Part shown: positions 35,789 through 42,222 of the stretch, piece after piece
How the letters are laid out: each line of letters opens with the position of its first letter
Numbering within the stretch: the stretch's first letter is position 1
From: a virus
Taxonomy: Duplodnaviria > Heunggongvirae > Uroviricota > Caudoviricetes
IMG/VR virus record: IMGVR_UViG_3300011155_000013
Location: 18,941-82,940 of that record
Strand: one strand, 5' to 3'
DNA length: 64,000 nt
Notes under the pieces: model-generated
Database searches by the model: none
Told to the model about the DNA's origin: nothing
What the model saw: only the letters and a program-made list of their open reading frames with translations
Position numbers and translations under genes: made by a program

Positions 35789-37015
35789 CTACCCCTTCAC
35801 ACAAAGAACTTGCCGAAGGGTATGAACCACTTCGATCAGATCCGATTGGGCGGCCATTACCGCGTCGATATCCTTGTAAGCACCAGGTGTTTCATCGAGG
35901 ACACCCTCGTCTTTCCGGCACTCAACACCTTCTGTGGCCTTTATGTGATCCTCAAGCGTGAACCTGCGTTTTGCCTCTGCACGACTCATAGCCCGGCCGG
36001 CGCCATGTGAACAGCTGCAGAACGACTGTGCGTCCCCCTTTCCTCTGACGATGAAAGAGCGAGCACCCATGCTGCCAGGGATGATGCCTAAATCACCAGC
36101 ACGGGCCCGTACAGCCCCCTTTCTGGTAACCATCACGTTATCGCCAAAGTGGTTCTCCCAGGCGACGTAGTTGTGGTGGCAGTTGACCGCTGCACAATCA
36201 CAGGAGAATGGCTTCGGCACTGCTGCTGACAGCGCGTCTATCGCCTCCGACATCATCAGTTCGCGGTTCACGCGGGCAAACGTCTGCGCCCATTCAACAG
36301 CCTCGCAGTAGTCAGCAAACAGCTCAGAGCCCTGCGGCAGATAAGCCAGGTCCTGGTCGGGCAGGTTGATGTGCCACCGGCGCATTTCTTCTTTGGCCCG
36401 CTCGATAAAATATGAGCCGATCGCATTGCCGATTCCGCGTGAACCGGAGTGCAGCATTATCCAAACCCGCTGCTCCTCATCCAGGCAGACCTCGACAAAG
36501 TGGTTGCCGGTACCGAGGGTACCGGCGTGCTTGATGGCACGATTACCGGCACGCTCAAGCTTGGGATGTTTGGCCGTAATTTTCGACAACTGAGCTATCA
36601 GCCCACCCAACTCTGGGTGAGTTGACGCCTTGGGCGCCTGGTCTCCCCACGCACCCCGATCTCCAGGGCCTCCGTTGTTGGTGCGGCCGTGCGGGATCCG
36701 GCGCTCGATCTCGCTGCGGAGTGCTTGGAGGTTATCCGGCAGGTCAGAAGCCGTAAGGGTGGTCCGCTGCGCCGCCATTCCACAGCCAATATCCACTCCG
36801 ACCGCAGCGGGAATCACCGCACCTTTCGTAGCTATCACGCTGCCGACGGTCGCCCCCATTCCCCAGTGCACATCCGGCATAGCTGCGATGTGCGAGTGGA
36901 TGAAGGGGAGTCCTGCCAGGTTGCGCAGCTGCTTCTTGGCAGCTTCTTCAACCTGCACGCCACGGACCCATGCCTTGATTGGGCGACCTTCGCTTTCGAT
37001 CAGTTGAAACGTCAT
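35789..37015 (-). CDS. rtcB: RtcB-family RNA 3'-phosphate ligase
   Basis: 408 aa with multiple His/Cys metal-site motifs conserved in RtcB (e.g. GTGNHF, NCHHNY, SCSHGAGR). Confidence 0.85.
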   Translation of the reverse strand: MTFQLIESEGRPIKAWVRGVQVEEAAKKQLRNLAGLPFIHSHIAAMPDVHWGMGATVGSVIATKGAVIPAAVGVDIGCGMAAQRTTLTASDLPDNLQALRSEIERRIPHGRTNNGGPGDRGAWGDQAPKASTHPELGGLIAQLSKITAKHPKLERAGNRAIKHAGTLGTGNHFVEVCLDEEQRVWIMLHSGSRGIGNAIGSYFIERAKEEMRRWHINLPDQDLAYLPQGSELFADYCEAVEWAQTFARVNRELMMSEAIDALSAAVPKPFSCDCAAVNCHHNYVAWENHFGDNVMVTRKGAVRARAGDLGIIPGSMGARSFIVRGKGDAQSFCSCSHGAGRAMSRAEAKRRFTLEDHIKATEGVECRKDEGVLDETPGAYKDIDAVMAAQSDLIEVVHTLRQVLCVKG

Positions 37016-37464
37016 TTGCCAGTGCTCCCGAAGCCACCCTCGCCGCGTGCCGTAGAGCTCAACTCCTCGACCTCGAGGAACTCGACCATCGGCACCTGCG
37101 ACAATTTCGCTTGGGCAATGCGGTCGCCGTGCAGAATCGGCATAGGCTCAGTTCCTTCGTTGATCAGCTTGACCATCACCTCGCCGCGGTAGTCCGCGTC
37201 GATGATCCCGACGCAGTTGGCCAGCCGGACACCGTTCTTGAATCCGTGGCCGCTGCGGGAGTAAACCTCCATCGTCCAGCAGACAGGGATTTCGAAGGAA
37301 AGGCCGGTGCGGATCAACGCGGTATGGCCTGGCTGAAGCAGCTGTCCGCCCTCCGACAGCAGGGCATGCAGGTCAAAGCAGGCGGCATGCTCTGTGCCGT
37401 ATCGTGGCAGCATGGCCTGCGGGTCCAGCTTCTTGACCTTCACGGGGATGTTGTCCATGTTCAA
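37012..37464 (-). CDS. dut: dUTP diphosphatase
   Basis: 150 aa with the trimeric dUTPase motif GIIDADYRGEV. ATGA-coupled to rtcB. Confidence 0.85.
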   Translation of the reverse strand: MNMDNIPVKVKKLDPQAMLPRYGTEHAACFDLHALLSEGGQLLQPGHTALIRTGLSFEIPVCWTMEVYSRSGHGFKNGVRLANCVGIIDADYRGEVMVKLINEGTEPMPILHGDRIAQAKLSQVPMVEFLEVEELSSTARGEGGFGSTGK

Positions 37465-39665
37465 ACTCCAACTTCAATGATGTTCGCGGCCAGGGCTTGA
37501 TCCTGCTCGCGGTGGGTGATGAGCAACAGCTGCTTGGCGCTTCCCGCCAGCGACGCGGCCAGTCCCGTCGCGTTGTGCTCGCTCATGGATTCAGTAGGCT
37601 CGTCGAAGATCAGCAGGCTGTCCGAGCCATACAACGCCCGGGCCAGGCCGATACGAACAGCTGAGCCGATGAACGCCTTCTGCGCGCCGGAAGCACACGC
37701 GACCGGTGCAACCACGCCGTCCTCCTCGTAGCAGAAGTCGCCGTCTTCGTTGGTGATACGGGTGATCTCGCCGCGGGTTGCTGCCTTGACCTGGCGCGAG
37801 GCCACGGCCATTACCGTTTCCCATACGTCGCGCAGGTACTGGATACGGCGATCAGCTAGGAAGCGGGCCAGCCGGCCGGCGCGGTCGGCGGCGATCTCGT
37901 GGCCCTTGACCTTCTGCAGAGTGCTTTCCATCGCCTCGACGCGACGCTGGGCCTCCCTCAGTGCCTTGGCTGCGACTGCATCATCCCGCACGGCCATCTC
38001 CACAGCATGCTGCGCCGCCTGGTAGCTGCGATCCCACTCGGCCTTGGCCTGGGCATAGGCGCCCTCAGCGGCGCGCGCCGCGGCGATCTGCTCATCGGTC
38101 GGGGCGTCGGCCACCAGTGCCTGGCGCGCTTCAGCCACGGCGTCTTCAGCGCTGGCGACGTTCTTGTGGGCCTGATTCAGCCGGCGTTCCGCCGCAGCGC
38201 GCCGCTCGTTTGCCTCTGCGCCGGCGTCAGCCTTGGCTTTGAGGGCGGCGACCTCGCCCTGCAGTTCTTCGATCACGCTATCGAGGCTGCTCGCCTCGCC
38301 GCGCAGGTCGTTGACCACACTGGCGTCGACCAGCTTGGCGGCCCACTTCTCAACCTCGGCCTGCTTGGCAGCGCGCTGATCGATGCGCTTTCGCATGGTG
38401 GCCAGCTGCTTGGTCCCTTCGGCCTCACCGGCGGTGGCCAGCGAAAGGCCCACACCCAGGTCGGAGATCTGCTTCTCGAGCGTGGCGATTTCCTCGGCCA
38501 GCTGCTCAGGGTCATGCTCGGCCAGCGCCGTGCCGCAGGTCGGGCAGGTGGCGTCCTTCTCGAGCTTGCGCAGCGCGGCCAGCTTGGATTTGTCGACGGC
38601 GATCAGCTCGCGGGTGCGGGTGGCCTCGTCGGCATAGTGGGCGTGGGTTTTCTCAGCTTCTTCAAGCCGCGCCACGGTGACCGGCTCAATCGCCGCCAGC
38701 TCCGTCTGAGCCTGCTCGTGCTCAGCCTCGGCGCGGATTGCACTGGCCAGCTGTTCCTTCACGTCAGCCAGACGGGCACGCTTCTGGCGAAGCACGGCGC
38801 CTTTCTCAGCGGAGGCTGCGGTGACGCTGTCGATGTCCACCAGCTCACCGCACTCTGCCAGCGCCTGCTCAGCCGTGACGACGGCCTCACGCTTGTGCTC
38901 CATAGCGGCCTCAGCTTCGCGCAGGGCGCTTTCCGCACGCTGGGCAATACGTTGGGTCGTCTGAAGGGCAGAAGAGCTCACCACGGGCGGCATAGCGGCC
39001 AGCGGCGGGAAGTTGTCGAGGTCGGTCTCGGCCTTCTGCCGGTCGACAACTGCTTCCTCGGAGCAGGTGGTGGCAGCGTCAAGAGCTGCGCGAGCAACGG
39101 CCAGCTCCTCTGCTGACACACTGCAAGCGTCCGCCGCAGCTTTCTCAGCGGTCGCCATGGCTCGGGCGCGGGTCATGATGCTGTCGATCAGCGCGATGCC
39201 GGCGAACTCTTCGACCTTCTGGTTCAGCGCGGTCGTACCGAAGGACAGCAGGCCGGAGGTCTGATGCTGCTTCGAGTTCAGAAACAGCGCGAAGTCCTTG
39301 GCGGTGAGGCCGAGCAGCTCTTCGACGTAGGCGGTCACCGGGGTGTTGCCGTTGGCAACGAGGGCGTCCCCGCCGCTGGCACGCTCGACCAACTTGGCCG
39401 TCGACTTGCTGCGGGTCAGGATGTAACGGGCGTTGTCGACCTCGAAGTGAAGCTCCAACCCGAACGTCGTCCGCCCCCAGGTCGGGATGTGCTCTTTCTT
39501 GCCAGGCACGACGGTCACGCCGAACAGTGCGGCCTCGATAGCCTGGATCAGGGTCGACTTGCCGCGGGCGTTCTCGCCGCAGATCACGTTCAGGCCGTCG
39601 GTGAAGTCGGCGGTGAAGGTGCCAAGGCGCTTGAAGTTGGTGGTAATGAGCTTGATCAGTTTCAT
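37461..39665 (-). CDS. SbcC/Rad50-like SMC ATPase with a CxxC zinc hook
   Basis: Walker A GENARGKST. Long coiled coils with a central ATCPTCG hook. C-terminal signature and D-loop LLIFDEPT. Confidence 0.8.
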   Translation of the reverse strand: MKLIKLITTNFKRLGTFTADFTDGLNVICGENARGKSTLIQAIEAALFGVTVVPGKKEHIPTWGRTTFGLELHFEVDNARYILTRSKSTAKLVERASGGDALVANGNTPVTAYVEELLGLTAKDFALFLNSKQHQTSGLLSFGTTALNQKVEEFAGIALIDSIMTRARAMATAEKAAADACSVSAEELAVARAALDAATTCSEEAVVDRQKAETDLDNFPPLAAMPPVVSSSALQTTQRIAQRAESALREAEAAMEHKREAVVTAEQALAECGELVDIDSVTAASAEKGAVLRQKRARLADVKEQLASAIRAEAEHEQAQTELAAIEPVTVARLEEAEKTHAHYADEATRTRELIAVDKSKLAALRKLEKDATCPTCGTALAEHDPEQLAEEIATLEKQISDLGVGLSLATAGEAEGTKQLATMRKRIDQRAAKQAEVEKWAAKLVDASVVNDLRGEASSLDSVIEELQGEVAALKAKADAGAEANERRAAAERRLNQAHKNVASAEDAVAEARQALVADAPTDEQIAAARAAEGAYAQAKAEWDRSYQAAQHAVEMAVRDDAVAAKALREAQRRVEAMESTLQKVKGHEIAADRAGRLARFLADRRIQYLRDVWETVMAVASRQVKAATRGEITRITNEDGDFCYEEDGVVAPVACASGAQKAFIGSAVRIGLARALYGSDSLLIFDEPTESMSEHNATGLAASLAGSAKQLLLITHREQDQALAANIIEVGV

Positions 39666-39822
39666 CGTGAATTCCTTGGAAATATGCCAAGTAACGCTGC
39701 GACGCTGGACATGGCGAAGAGCATCAGGCAGGCCACTGAGGTCCAATCGCCGTTGTTCTTGGTCAGTTCAGCGGCGATGAACCAGATAGGTGATGCGACC
39801 AGGTGGGAGTTGTGTGAGAAGT

Positions 39823-40194
39823 TCATTTGGCCGCCCCTGTGAGGTCTTCCAGCGTTTCCAGGTACTGGCGGCGCTGCTTTGCGTCTCGCTCAGCCTCTAG
39901 CCGAAGTACAAGTGCTCGGAGCCTGGCCATTGTCCTGATGCGGGGCCGTCGCGCCTCGGCCCCCTTCCATCGGTCTCCCTTGTAGACCATGGAGAGGTGC
40001 CCGAACGAGTAGGGGTAGTTGCTTACACACACGTCCGCATTCCCCATCTGTACGGTGTGATGGGATAACTTGGCGGTTTCGCTATGTGTGTCTAAGAGAG
40101 AGTTCAGAGTTTTGTCCCATTCCGGGCAGAACTCCTCCATGAAAAGCACCCCAAACCACGACCTCAGAACGATCTCGACGTAACCAAGAGTCAT
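39823..40194 (-). CDS. hypothetical protein (123 aa)
   Basis: Real-looking C-terminal part of ORF 39823..40581. ATG at 40194 overlaps the stop of the upstream gene (ATGA). Confidence 0.45.
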   Translation of the reverse strand: MTLGYVEIVLRSWFGVLFMEEFCPEWDKTLNSLLDTHSETAKLSHHTVQMGNADVCVSNYPYSFGHLSMVYKGDRWKGAEARRPRIRTMARLRALVLRLEAERDAKQRRQYLETLEDLTGAAK

Positions 40195-40466
40195 CAGGCT
40201 GCCTCCACCGCATAGATCGTCACGCCTTCGGCAGGCGCTGCCCTGCAGATTCTCTCGAGCATTTTCAGCTCTTCTCTTGAGCAGTCGTCGATGACGATGG
40301 TGGTCATCCCGTCGGCTGCCAGCCGGCGCAATGCTCTTTCGACGCTGAGCGAGTCGTAACCCCACAGGATCCGCTGGATACCTTTGTCCCCCGCGTTCCG
40401 CAGGATCTCTTGCAGCTTGGTTGTCTTCCCGGACATCGCCGGGCCGCGGATGATTTCTAGCTTCAT
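40194..40466 (-). CDS. mini P-loop protein (90 aa) with a thymidine-kinase-like Walker A (RGPAMSGKTT) and Walker-B-like IVIDD
   Basis: Motifs seen in the sequence. Far shorter than full-length TK. Confidence 0.5.
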   Translation of the reverse strand: MKLEIIRGPAMSGKTTKLQEILRNAGDKGIQRILWGYDSLSVERALRRLAADGMTTIVIDDCSREELKMLERICRAAPAEGVTIYAVEAA

Positions 40467-40602
40467 ACAGTGAGTTCCTTGATCGCTTGACGAATGGAGA
40501 GCCGGAGACGCAGGGTCTTGAAGCAGAGGCGCGGGGCGTACTCAGCCTCGATTCGGAGCAGCTGCTCGAGGCGCGGGCCAAGGCCGCTGGAAGGGCGTGG
40601 GG
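40463..40602 (-). CDS. small ORF (46 aa) translationally coupled on both sides
   Basis: ATGA overlaps at both ends. Not in the ORF track because it is short. Confidence 0.3.
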
Positions 40603-40608
40603 CTGGCT

Positions 40609-40941
40609 TCATGGCTGACCTCCGTCTGCGTCGTAGATGCACGCAGGGCGGCGGAACTCAATGACCTCGCCGTTCTCCTCCTTCCAGTCCATCGCTGAGC
40701 CGAGGTGGCACTTGTCGGTGCGAACCGCGTAGTGGACCTGGCAGCCGGCAATAACCAGATCACCGACCTGCACGTACCAATTGGTCGATCGTGCGTTGGT
40801 TCGAATGCCCAGTGTCTTCTCATCGCTGTGGACGCCGTGGACTGTGCCGTAGGCAGCTCGGTATTGCCTTCCGTCAGGCGCGAAGAAGAAACAGTCGGTG
40901 GTGATCAGGACCTTGGTTCCTATCTCAAACTGATGACTCAC
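40609..40941 (-). CDS. hypothetical protein (110 aa)
   Basis: ORF with 4-nt overlaps with both neighbours. Confidence 0.45.
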   Translation of the reverse strand: MSHQFEIGTKVLITTDCFFFAPDGRQYRAAYGTVHGVHSDEKTLGIRTNARSTNWYVQVGDLVIAGCQVHYAVRTDKCHLGSAMDWKEENGEVIEFRRPACIYDADGGQP

Positions 40942-41972
40942 ACCGCCACCTCCTTCGCCAACTCGCTGAACAGGTCAGCCAAATCGCTACCTTCCAACTC
41001 GCGGCTGATGCGGGTGCGCAGATCCTCGACTACCGGCTTCTCCGCCTCGTCGTCGACTACGTTCACGCCGGCCACCGAGACGCTGTTGCGAACTGCCAAT
41101 GCGTCCGGGGCGTTCTCCCACACCATCTGCATGAAGTCGGCGACAGCCACGGCCTCGTCCGCAGCGCCAATCACGTCGATGAACTGCACGCCACTCAGGT
41201 CCGGCAGCTCCTGACCGAACATGACTGACGCGAAGCGCTCGTCCTTGGACCAGATGCGGGTTTTGGTGAGATCAATGCTGTCGTCGGTGATCTCCAGCTG
41301 GTAGGAGAACTTGTCGCTGATATCGGCAAACGACGTCGGGTGCGTGTTGCCCAGGATCACCACTCGGCCGTCGAAGTGGGTGGACGGCTTGTGCTCGTGG
41401 CCGAGGAAGATGTAGTCGAACGACTCCAACAGCTTCTGCGCGATTGCCGGCGACAGGTTGAGGGTGTCGTCCTCGGTGGCGAAGGGCTGGTCGTAGTTGC
41501 AATGCAGCATCAAGACGCTGGCCCGGCCGGCGCGCTCACAGGCCGCATGCTCAGCGGCGTCCAGCATTGCCTGCTCGAACAGCTCCTGACTGGCGTGGTG
41601 CGGGACGAAGTAGAGCGGTTCGAAGTTGTCGAAGTAGGGCTCCGACAAGCTGGGCGAGGAGATGATCGCGCAGCCCATTTCCTGGAGCGCGCGGAGGCTT
41701 GTGATGGTCCCTTCGCGGTTGGTCTCGTCGTGGTTGCCGGCCAGCGTCCACATGCAGTTGCTGGCGATCTCGTAACCCTGGACCAAGATCGATTCGTCGT
41801 TGAAGGCGCGGTCGAACAGGTCGCCCAGGCAGATCGGCTTCTCCGCGTCCTCAATGACGTCCCACGCCTGCTTGAACAAGGCGAGGGTCAGGTGCTTGGA
41901 GGACTCGCGGGTGGTATGCGCTGCCCGGCGGGTGCCGAGGTGTGGATCGGTGAAGAGCGTATACGTCGTCAT
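40938..41972 (-). CDS. SbcD/Mre11-like metallophosphoesterase nuclease
   Basis: N-terminal DPHLG motif. The later GNHD and GHEH motifs are typical of the calcineurin-like nuclease family. Confidence 0.8.
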   Translation of the reverse strand: MTTYTLFTDPHLGTRRAAHTTRESSKHLTLALFKQAWDVIEDAEKPICLGDLFDRAFNDESILVQGYEIASNCMWTLAGNHDETNREGTITSLRALQEMGCAIISSPSLSEPYFDNFEPLYFVPHHASQELFEQAMLDAAEHAACERAGRASVLMLHCNYDQPFATEDDTLNLSPAIAQKLLESFDYIFLGHEHKPSTHFDGRVVILGNTHPTSFADISDKFSYQLEITDDSIDLTKTRIWSKDERFASVMFGQELPDLSGVQFIDVIGAADEAVAVADFMQMVWENAPDALAVRNSVSVAGVNVVDDEAEKPVVEDLRTRISRELEGSDLADLFSELAKEVAV

Positions 41973-42063: not shown

Positions 42064-42222
42064 TCACAGCAACGCCTGCACAAATGGAAGGGCGAAGAAG
42101 AAACCGAGGGTCGCCCCGAAGCCAAAGAAGCCGCCGACGCAGATCAGCAGGATGAGCTTGCAGACGCTGCCGATGGTTTCGTCTACCAGGCCTCGCAGCG
42201 CCCGCTTGGTCTCGTACCTCAT
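42064..42222 (-). CDS. small membrane protein (52 aa)
   Basis: ATG at 42222 overlaps the ligase stop. Single hydrophobic helix with a GxxxG-like packing motif. Confidence 0.35.
   Translation of the reverse strand: MRYETKRALRGLVDETIGSVCKLILLICVGGFFGFGATLGFFFALPFVQALL

What the first reader, a model, noticed from the sequence alone, without database searches (positions are those of the whole stretch)
39823..40941. Four translationally coupled small ORFs, including a TK-like mini P-loop protein, inserted between the Mre11-like and Rad50-like genes
In phages the Mre11/SbcD and Rad50/SbcC homologues (T4 gp47/gp46) are usually adjacent. Here they are separated by a chain of four small genes of 110, 46, 90 and 123 aa. 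The genes are joined by ATGA-type 4-nt overlaps (40941/40938, 40602/40609, 40466/40463, 40194/40196). The 90-aa protein has a Walker A RGPAMSGKTT, strongly reminiscent of thymidine kinase (GPMFSGKST), and a Walker-B-like IVIDD, but it is half the size of a TK. None of the four proteins is recognisable otherwise. Tight coupling to the DSB-repair nuclease implies stoichiometric co-expression. This may be a novel accessory or regulatory module of the phage Mre11-Rad50 complex, or an anti-defence cassette.
Basis: partly seen in the sequence, partly recalled or inferred. Interest (0 to 1): 0.6.

Follow-up and report, generated by a model that had tools for sequence, protein, structure and literature searches.

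The report
Variable small-gene slot between SbcD and SbcC
The stretch between this phage's two DNA-break-repair nuclease genes holds five real small genes that related phages gain, lose and swap independently, so it is a variable accessory-gene slot, not a fixed add-on to the nuclease; one gene, a 90-residue mini ATP-binding protein, recurs there and is uncharacterised.

Summary
The small ORFs are real, but there are five, not four. All lie on the minus strand: A 110 aa, B 49 aa (not 46), C 90 aa, D 123 aa and a missed E of 54 aa. All overlap their neighbours by 4 nt or 1 nt. All show coding GC3 and dN/dS of 0.07-0.75.

Among relatives whose SbcD/SbcC are 89-95% identical, the content varies by whole genes: B-C, A-B-C, B-C-D-E, A-B-C-D-E, B-C plus two unrelated genes, and C-A-B. 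Lana-like phages carry MazG there instead. In an SbcD-seeded survey only 2 of 21 loci had the two nuclease genes abutting. T4 itself has 46.2 and 46.1 between genes 47 and 46.

- A (phrog_22562, small beta-barrel) occurs in at least 87 phage records, in contexts with no SbcCD nearby.
- D-E is a rare two-gene cassette; E has one membrane-like segment.
- C is not a thymidine kinase. It belongs to an orphan family of ~90-aa minimal P-loop proteins. That family recurs in this slot down to 35% SbcD identity, but it also sits beside the primase/helicase of phiCTX-like phages, adjacent or fused to DUF7673.

Verdict: an accessory-gene hotspot. The overlaps are operon-wide and do not indicate a complex. 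Only C merits follow-up.

The parts
40938..41972 (-). SbcD/Mre11-like nuclease gene (344 aa); conserved upstream anchor of the slot
   Evidence: Pfam Metallophos/Metallophos_2 and phrog_100. It is 89-94% identical in close relatives and 50-55% in Lana, PMBT3 and UAntarctica.
40609..40941 (-). ORF A, 110 aa, GTG start overlapping the SbcD stop (GTGA). Member of phrog_22562, a widespread phage small beta-barrel protein. Optional cassette.
40463..40612 (-). ORF B, 49 aa, ATGA overlaps on both sides. Clade-specific small protein with no family match.
   Evidence: No hits in Pfam, PHROGs, NCBIfam or PADLOC, and no tblastn match in phages. Present in every close relative examined; in L010 it lies after A (C-A-B). 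dN/dS 0.13-0.75.
40194..40466 (-). ORF C, 90 aa, minimal stand-alone P-loop NTPase. Walker A G8-x4-G13-K14-T15-T16; Walker B I57-V-I-D60-D61, followed by invariant C62.
   Evidence: phrog_19520, E 6e-13. 34 family representatives among 1.8 billion proteins, nearly all 87-98 aa. Motifs conserved. AF2 pLDDT 85.5: b1, P-loop, a1, b2, a2, b3, a3, b4. Only weak, generic ASCE/AAA+/TK1 fold matches. Recurs between SbcD and SbcC in divergent lineages and beside the primase and DUF7673 in phiCTX-like phages.
39823..40194 (-). ORF D, 123 aa, start shares 1 nt with the C stop (TGATG). First gene of the optional D-E cassette.
   Evidence: Only 4 homologous clusters. Weak hit to phrog_16975. Always paired with E and always between C and SbcC (window, L014, L047, L048, L049). 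dN/dS 0.22-0.32.
39662..39826 (-). ATGA overlaps with D and with SbcC. One strongly hydrophobic segment (residues ~28-50). Its 3' end carries the SbcC ribosome-binding site.
   Evidence: Kyte-Doolittle maximum 2.3. Conserved with D in 4 other contigs and called by public annotators. dN/dS 0.20-0.41. Junction sequence.
37461..39665 (-). SbcC/Rad50-like gene (734 aa from ATG 39665); conserved downstream anchor of the slot
   Evidence: phrog_28217 E 1.7e-130; Pfam AAA_23 and SMC_N. Relatives align from residue 1.

Best explanation
The gap between the SbcD-like and SbcC-like genes in this lineage of PolA-encoding Pseudomonas/Stutzerimonas siphophages is a long-lived hypervariable accessory-gene slot inside one polycistronic replication/repair operon.

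Shown:
- In this window the slot holds five genuine genes that form at least three independently assorting units: A; B and C; and the D-E pair.
- Units are gained, lost and swapped exactly at the stop/start junctions, each carrying its own Shine-Dalgarno motif.
- Every arrangement therefore keeps 4-nt or 1-nt overlaps down to SbcC.

Inferred:
- The overlaps are the way promoter-less cargo is expressed without cutting off SbcC translation. They are not a sign of a stoichiometric complex.
- A is a promiscuous phage small beta-barrel protein, possibly binding nucleic acid or forming oligomers.
- D-E is a rare cassette with a membrane component, most likely a host-interaction or exclusion type of accessory function.
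- C is a minimal P-loop protein whose selected function is NTP binding or hydrolysis. It probably acts as a small nucleotide-dependent cofactor or switch in phage DNA metabolism, because it is embedded in two different DNA-metabolism modules: SbcD-SbcC here, and primase/helicase plus DUF7673 in phiCTX-like phages. It is not an obligate SbcCD subunit.
For: Slot content differs among phages with 89-95% identical SbcD/SbcC. Observed arrangements are B-C, A-B-C, B-C-D-E, A-B-C-D-E, B-C+202aa+87aa and C-A-B.

Lana, PMBT3 and UAntarctica carry A and/or MazG plus other small genes there.

In the SbcD-seeded survey the slot length ranged from -14 to 2117 nt, and only 2 of 21 loci abutted. Cargo was diverse: an XRE-type HTH protein, membrane-like proteins and a 246-aa family.

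The A indel is exact at ATGA. The ribosome-binding site before SbcC is the same with or without D-E.

Synonymous divergence jumps gene by gene between the window and L014: SbcD 0.28, A 0.055, B 0.61, C 0.65, D 0.33, E 0.08, SbcC 0.20. This shows recombination at gene boundaries.

Cargo GC3 is 0.67-0.76, against 0.80-0.88 for the core genes.

There are no promoter-like or terminator-like sites inside the slot.

Overlaps are common elsewhere in the operon.

A occurs in unrelated contexts.

T4 has the analogous arrangement 47, 46.2, 46.1, 46.

The C family has conserved Walker A, Walker B and Cys62, a conserved length of ~90 aa, and two recurrent contexts.
Against: C stays in the slot in lineages with only 34-35% SbcD identity. 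In L036 it is the only gene there. That is unusually stable for hotspot cargo and could reflect a real functional tie to SbcCD.

B and C were present in every member of the close clade, so they behave as clade core genes, not as variable cargo.

No cargo gene matches a known defence or anti-defence family, so the functional half of the explanation is inference only.

The C-seeded loci are biased towards containing C. The unbiased SbcD-seeded survey has only about 14 distinct lineages.
Confidence: 0.7

Rival explanations
1. The whole chain is a dedicated accessory or regulatory module of the phage Mre11-Rad50 (SbcCD) complex, co-expressed stoichiometrically through translational coupling.
For: All junctions from SbcD to SbcC are overlapped. 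T4 also keeps small ORFs between genes 47 and 46. C recurs in this position in divergent lineages.
Against: A and D-E are each present or absent in phages with near-identical SbcCD. A is widespread in phages where no SbcCD lies nearby. Sister clades have different genes in the slot, or none. Overlaps are operon-wide. T4 46.1 and 46.2 are not homologous to A-E.
Confidence: 0.06
2. Only C (possibly with B) is a true nucleotide-dependent cofactor of SbcCD, for example modulating Rad50-like ATPase cycling or nuclease access. The other genes are unrelated cargo.
For: C lies between SbcD and SbcC in the window clade, L034, L037/L031 and the L036-like clade. SbcD identity across these falls from 94% to 34%. 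C is the sole slot gene in L036. The Walker motifs are under selection.
Against: The family also sits after the primase/helicase in phiCTX-like phages, adjacent or fused to DUF7673, with no SbcCD nearby. Lana-type phages with homologous SbcCD lack it. Two C alleles only ~62% identical occur with ~90-94% identical SbcCD, which argues against a tightly co-adapted interface.
Confidence: 0.2
3. The cargo genes, especially D-E and perhaps A, B and C, are counter-defence or superinfection-exclusion genes, as is typical of phage hypervariable regions.
For: Hypervariable slot flanked by core genes, fast turnover and lower GC3. E has a membrane-like segment. Phage and prophage diversity hotspots are known reservoirs of such genes (PMC9122126; bioRxiv 10.1101/2024.10.15.618418 and 10.1101/2023.04.06.535777, listed).
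Against: No significant PADLOC, Pfam or NCBIfam match. No experimental data. A is very strongly conserved (dN/dS about 0.1 and at least 44% identity across the 73 clusters found), unlike fast-evolving arms-race genes.
Confidence: 0.3
4. C is a truncated or degenerate thymidine kinase.
For: The Walker A motif resembles that of TK. The best Foldseek PDB hit is human TK1 (E 0.014, TMq 0.54).
Against: The window protein has no Pfam TK hit, and only 1 of 34 members matches (E 3.5e-4). There is no lasso or zinc domain. The family length is fixed at 87-98 aa across 34 representatives. AAA+, RFC and STAND cores match equally well.
Confidence: 0.02

Closest known systems
Phage T4 genes 47, 46.2, 46.1, 46
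   Same: Same gene order: SbcD-like gene, then small ORFs of unknown function, then SbcC-like gene. Same strand, with 4-nt stop/start overlaps.
   Different: 46.2 and 46.1 show no sequence similarity to A-E. T4 has two ORFs where this window has five, and none of the T4 ORFs has a P-loop.
Hypervariable accessory-gene hotspots of phages (for example the P2 gpA-gpQ and P4 hotspots; Rousset et al. 2022, PMC9122126)
   Same: Conserved flanking core genes. Cargo varies among close relatives and is exchanged as cassettes. Much of the cargo has unknown function.
   Different: This slot lies inside an essential-looking two-gene nuclease operon, and its cargo is promoter-less and translationally chained. 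No recognisable defence system is present. One occupant, C, is unusually persistent.
Lana / PMBT3 / UAntarctica SbcD-SbcC interval (Lanavirus, Maxrubnervirus)
   Same: Homologous SbcD (50-55% identical) and SbcC (~39-46%), with 2-3 small genes between them. A homologues are present in Lana and UAntarctica.
   Different: Their cargo is a MazG-like NTP pyrophosphohydrolase plus other small proteins. They have no B, C, D or E.
Minimal ASCE P-loop cores (N-terminal alpha/beta core of AAA+/RFC/STAND NTPases, TK1, SF1/SF2 helicase domain 1)
   Same: Walker A and Walker B motifs on a beta-alpha-beta core. Weak sequence and fold matches.
   Different: Only 4 predicted strands and ~90 aa. No lid, arginine finger, sensor or substrate domain. 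No family reaches a curated threshold. Invariant Cys directly after Walker B.
Mini-P-loop plus DUF7673 genes of phiCTX-like (Citexvirus) phages, e.g. Pseudomonas phage vB_PaeM-D14A
   Same: Homologous ~90-aa P-loop protein (profile E around 1e-9; 38% identity to C) embedded in a DNA-metabolism module.
   Different: It lies after a ~900-aa primase/helicase, adjacent to or fused with DUF7673. No SbcCD is nearby, and no DUF7673 was detected among the five slot ORFs of this window.

Membership tests
Thymidine kinase (Pfam PF00265, TK1-type) | Sequence match to the TK family model above its threshold | tested here: not met
   No TK hit for the window protein at E <= 1. Only 1 of 34 family members matches, at E 3.5e-4.
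Thymidine kinase (Pfam PF00265, TK1-type) | Full alpha/beta domain plus C-terminal zinc/lasso domain (~190 aa) | tested here: not met
   The protein is 90 aa with 4 predicted strands and ends after b4. Family length is fixed at 87-98 aa. TK1 is only a weak partial fold match (E 0.014). The size and domain layout of TK1 are from general knowledge.
P-loop NTPase (ASCE-type core) | Walker A GxxxxGK[ST] after strand 1 | tested here: met
   G8...G13-K14-T15. G13 is invariant, and K14 and T15 are conserved in at least 90% of 34 diverse members.
P-loop NTPase (ASCE-type core) | Walker B hhhhD[DE] at the end of a strand | tested here: met
   IVIDD at residues 57-61, on predicted strand E56-62. D60 is at least 90% conserved, followed by D or E and an invariant C62.
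P-loop NTPase (ASCE-type core) | NTP binding and hydrolysis | not testable with these tools
   Needs purified protein, wild type against K14A.
Phage hypervariable accessory-gene hotspot | Conserved syntenic core genes on both flanks | tested here: met
   SbcD and SbcC flank the slot in all 30 or so loci examined.
Phage hypervariable accessory-gene hotspot | Gene content differs among close relatives by whole-gene cassettes | tested here: met
   Six arrangements among phages with at least 89% identical SbcD, plus L010 at 70%. Exact junctions are shown.
Phage hypervariable accessory-gene hotspot | Cargo families also occur in other genomic contexts | tested here: met
   A. C family. D-like. B and E were found only here.
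Phage hypervariable accessory-gene hotspot | Cargo acts in defence, counter-defence or host takeover | tested here: inconclusive
   No significant PADLOC hit. No functional data.
SbcCD/Mre11-Rad50 accessory subunit | Co-occurs with SbcCD whenever SbcCD is present in the lineage | tested here: not met
   A and D-E are polymorphic among near-identical phages. C is absent from the Lana-type clade and from many 34-40% identity lineages.
SbcCD/Mre11-Rad50 accessory subunit | Physical interaction with SbcC or SbcD | not testable with these tools
   No multimer prediction or biochemistry was available.
Sm/Hfq/SH3-like small beta-barrel (for ORF A) | Five-stranded bent beta-barrel matching solved Sm/SH3 folds | tested here: inconclusive

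The most novel reading that the evidence does not exclude
The ~90-aa C family is a previously undescribed class of stand-alone minimal P-loop NTPases. In this reading it serves as a portable nucleotide-dependent cofactor or switch for phage DNA-end-processing and replication machines. It would pair with SbcCD in PolA-type siphophages and with a primase/helicase plus DUF7673 (sometimes as a fusion) in phiCTX-like phages.
Probability: 0.2. Interest if true: 0.6.

Novelty: new member of a known kind. Interest (0 to 1): 0.35.

Why it matters
Tight stop/start overlaps next to a well-known enzyme are not evidence of a complex. In this operon they are simply how promoter-less cargo is carried.

The analysis identifies the SbcD-SbcC interval as a recurrent insertion slot across a broad phage group, T4 included by analogy. 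That makes it a defined place to look for new accessory genes.

It also isolates one candidate worth an experiment. This is an orphan family of ~90-aa P-loop proteins close to the minimal size for the fold. The family is embedded in two different phage DNA-metabolism modules and is fused to DUF7673 in some genomes.

Tried and rejected
- **TK hypothesis for C.** Rejected: no Pfam hit, no lasso domain, fixed 90-aa family.
- **C as a paralogue of another window gene** (for example the SbcC N-terminus or a helicase). The family profile hit only C among the window's ORFs of at least 60 aa in all six frames.
- **Homology of T4 46.1/46.2 to A-E.** None found.
- **Known defence or anti-defence families.** PADLOC gave only sub-threshold noise: mad8 at 0.013 for the P-loop and PycTM at 0.006 for the hydrophobic E. 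NCBIfam gave nothing.
- **RNA elements, promoters or terminators in the slot.** None. The internal repeats found are short, imperfect two-copy matches consistent with chance.
- **tblastn against cultured phages.** No match for B, C or the L036-type C. For D, only a partial hit in an Erythrobacter phage.
- **Profile scans for the C family.** Scans of viral and genome collections with the whole-family or subgroup alignments failed because no stretch was conserved enough. One subgroup alignment worked.
- **Fold searches for C.** PDB and BFVD gave no match below E 1e-3.
- **Literature.** A search for DUF7673 found nothing.
- **Multimer modelling** of C with SbcC/SbcD could not be run.
Full report
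**1. What is there**

All relevant genes are on the minus strand.

| Gene | Coordinates | Size | Start junction |
|---|---|---|---|
| SbcD/Mre11-like | 40938-41972 | 344 aa | - |
| A | 40609-40941 | 110 aa | GTG start, GTGA overlap with SbcD stop |
| B | 40463-40612 | 49 aa | ATGA |
| C | 40194-40466 | 90 aa | ATGA |
| D | 39823-40194 | 123 aa | TGATG, 1-nt overlap |
| E | 39662-39826 | 54 aa | ATGA |
| SbcC/Rad50-like | 37461-39665 | 734 aa | ATG at 39665, ATGA overlap with E stop |

SbcD matches Metallophos and phrog_100; SbcC matches phrog_28217 at E 1.7e-130. All relatives align to SbcC from that ATG.

**2. Are the ORFs real genes?**

Yes, on four lines of evidence.
- Each has the coding GC pattern. 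GC3 is 0.67-0.76, somewhat below the 0.80-0.88 of SbcD, SbcC, ligase and dUTPase.
- Each has a Shine-Dalgarno-like motif upstream.
- Against relatives, dN/dS is 0.07-0.19 for A, 0.13-0.75 for B, 0.18-0.56 for C, 0.22-0.32 for D and 0.20-0.41 for E. SbcD gives 0.11-0.15 and SbcC 0.16-0.29.
- Independent public gene calls list the same five genes.

There is no promoter-like or terminator-like site and no Rfam match in the slot.

**3. Synteny in relatives**

The nearest cultured relatives are Pseudomonas phages Lana, PMBT3 and UAntarctica, with SbcD 50-55% identical. They also have 2-3 small genes between SbcD and SbcC, but different ones. Lana and UAntarctica have an A homologue. All three have a MazG-like NTP pyrophosphohydrolase and another small protein. 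None has B, C, D or E.

Much closer relatives have SbcD 89-94% and SbcC 91-95% identical. They come from IMG/VR and from Stutzerimonas stutzeri-type assemblies, and they show these slot contents:

| Slot content | Loci |
|---|---|
| B-C | L012, L013, L015, L026 |
| A-B-C | L011, L016, L029 |
| A-B-C-D-E | window, L014, L047 |
| B-C-D-E | L048 |
| B-C plus unrelated 202-aa and 87-aa genes | L009 |
| C-A-B (SbcD 70% identical) | L010 |

A and D-E therefore assort independently of each other and of B-C.

The indels are exact.
- Genomes without A read ...AAGGAGGTGGCGGT|ATGAAGCCAGCC (start of B).
- Genomes with A insert the A gene between two ATGA junctions, each preceded by GGAGGT.
- With or without D-E, the same CAAGGAATTCACG precedes the SbcC ATG.

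Synonymous divergence between the window and L014 jumps gene by gene: SbcD 0.28, A 0.055, B 0.61, C 0.65, D 0.33, E 0.08, SbcC 0.20. This is a recombination mosaic with breakpoints at gene boundaries.

**4. Unbiased survey**

An SbcD profile scan of viral contigs gave 21 loci that carry both genes.
- The interval ranged from -14 to 2117 nt. Only two loci (L063, L074) had SbcD and SbcC abutting.
- C occupied the slot in 7 loci, belonging to two clades.
- A occupied it in 5 loci, and MazG in 3.
- Other cargo included a 246-aa family, an XRE-type HTH protein, membrane-like proteins and further unknowns.

T4 itself has 46.2 and 46.1 between genes 47 and 46, with 4-nt overlaps. They are not homologous to A-E. 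The premise that the two nuclease genes are normally adjacent therefore fails even for the prototype.

**5. Is the coupling special?**

No. RtcB/dUTPase and dUTPase/SbcC in this window also overlap by 4 nt. So do many junctions in the PolA-ligase part of the operon in relatives, and in Lana. In L047, all 6 slot junctions overlap, against 5 of 10 neighbouring same-strand junctions. The overlaps are best read as the way promoter-less cassettes are carried in a polycistronic operon while keeping SbcC translated. That reading is an inference.

**6. The individual genes**

**A** belongs to phrog_22562 (E 2.6e-28).
- Homologues occur in 87 phage records: Aeromonas T5-like, Erwinia Vequintavirinae, Flavobacterium, Cellulophaga and Pseudomonas KLEP17-4.
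- The neighbouring genes there are tRNAs, early genes or head genes, with no SbcCD nearby.
- It also forms 73 protein clusters with at least 44% identity.

**B** has no detectable relatives outside the clade.

**D** has only four homologous clusters, plus a weak PHROG match and a weak Erythrobacter-phage match.

**E** has one strongly hydrophobic segment. D and E always occur together, between C and SbcC.

**7. The P-loop protein C**

The family is small: 13 clusters at 90% identity, and 34 representatives among 1.8 billion proteins. Nearly all members are 87-98 aa. Across 34 diverse members, G13, L18 and C62 are invariant, and G8, K14, T15 and D60 are conserved in at least 90%. The conserved residues are thus essentially the Walker A and Walker B motifs plus a cysteine directly after Walker B.

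The AF2 model has pLDDT 85.5 and the order b1, P-loop, a1, b2, a2, b3 (Walker B), a3, b4. Fold and profile searches give only weak, generic ASCE matches. These include TK1 at E 0.014, NSF, RFC, STAND, DEAH-helicase domain 1, and designed minimal P-loops. It is not a thymidine kinase.

Context is informative. Distant homologues, 34-45% identical to C, again lie between SbcD and SbcC:

| Locus | SbcD identity to window |
|---|---|
| L034 | 65% |
| L037 | 58% |
| L031 | 51% (partial SbcD) |
| L036, L033, L069, L071, L073 | 34-36% |

In L036, C is the only gene in the slot. Clades at 62%, 50-55% and other 34-40% identity lack it, so its distribution is patchy.

A second conserved context exists in phiCTX-like Peduoviridae, for example Pseudomonas phage vB_PaeM-D14A. 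Nine loci show it: L038, L040-L046 and the D14A locus. There the C-like gene lies immediately after a ~900-aa primase/helicase. In six of these loci a DUF7673-like gene is adjacent (L038, L042, L044, L046) or fused to it (L043, L045). No SbcCD lies nearby. P0045, a separate ~200-aa family member, is a similar fusion. No DUF7673 was detected among the five slot ORFs of this window.

Within the close clade, two C alleles are only ~62% identical because their central segment has been swapped. They occur alongside SbcCD that is ~90-94% identical. That argues against a tightly co-adapted interface.

**8. Interpretation**

The best-supported reading (confidence about 0.7) is a long-lived accessory-gene hotspot inside the SbcD-SbcC operon, holding independently exchangeable cassettes. 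The functions of the cargo are inferred, not shown.
- A may be a nucleic-acid-binding or oligomeric small barrel.
- D-E may be a membrane-associated host-interaction or exclusion cassette.
- C is likely a minimal NTP-binding cofactor or switch linked to phage DNA metabolism.

The reading that the whole chain is an SbcCD accessory module is essentially refuted by the presence/absence polymorphism. The narrower idea that C alone is an SbcCD cofactor remains possible (about 0.2). A counter-defence role for some cargo is plausible but untested; PADLOC was negative.

**9. Novelty and score**

The arrangement is a new example of a known kind: a phage hypervariable slot, analogous to T4 47-46.2-46.1-46. 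The only element with real novelty potential is the orphan mini-P-loop family, with its two module contexts and its DUF7673 fusions. Interest is 0.35.

Noticed in passing
window 35789-37015 (-): An RtcB-type RNA ligase gene (408 aa) is the last gene of the operon and overlaps dUTPase by 4 nt. None of the close relatives has it at this position; they carry small ORFs or nothing after dUTPase. Its GC3 (0.65) is below that of the core genes. It looks like a second accessory insertion site.
   Followed up: partly
L026 (GCA_032114355.1, 690-kb contig) and L029 (Stutzerimonas stutzeri GCA_029839225.1, 194-kb contig): Near-identical copies of this ~80-kb phage genome region sit inside large bacterial contigs. 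The phage may therefore be integrated or otherwise carried in Stutzerimonas genomes, despite its lytic-looking PolA/ligase/SbcCD replication module.
   Followed up: no
L043 6001-6615, L045, and proteins P0040 and P0045: In phiCTX-like Pseudomonas phages the C-like mini P-loop is fused in one ORF (~200 aa) to a DUF7673-like domain; P0026 (210 aa) also carries a C-terminal extension that was not identified. In other members the two are adjacent genes, in either order. This gene-fusion link involves a domain of unknown function with no literature.
   Followed up: partly
window 40194-40466 compared with L011-L016: C exists as two alleles. They share the N-terminal 29 residues and the C-terminal GVTIYAVEAA, but the central b2-a2 segment differs, giving ~62% identity overall. 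The flanking SbcD and SbcC are ~90-94% identical, which suggests intragenic recombination or diversifying pressure on that segment.
   Followed up: partly
window ~42064-42222 (-), between ligase and SbcD: A small hydrophobic ORF follows the ligase gene; relatives have a 49-52-aa gene called there with a 4-nt overlap. The two 'terminator-like' hairpins at 42150-42131 and 42119-42104 fall inside it and are probably by-products of Phe-rich coding sequence.
   Followed up: no
window 41281-41375 (+): ARAGORN calls a 95-nt tRNA-Ile(GAT) antisense to, and inside, the SbcD coding sequence. Rfam finds no tRNA there. It is most likely a false positive.
   Followed up: partly
L009 6273-6881 and L037 2339-2929: A ~200-aa protein family (34% identical between the two loci) recurs immediately downstream of C in two divergent phages. 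It has no Pfam or PHROG match and is another recurrent slot occupant.
   Followed up: partly
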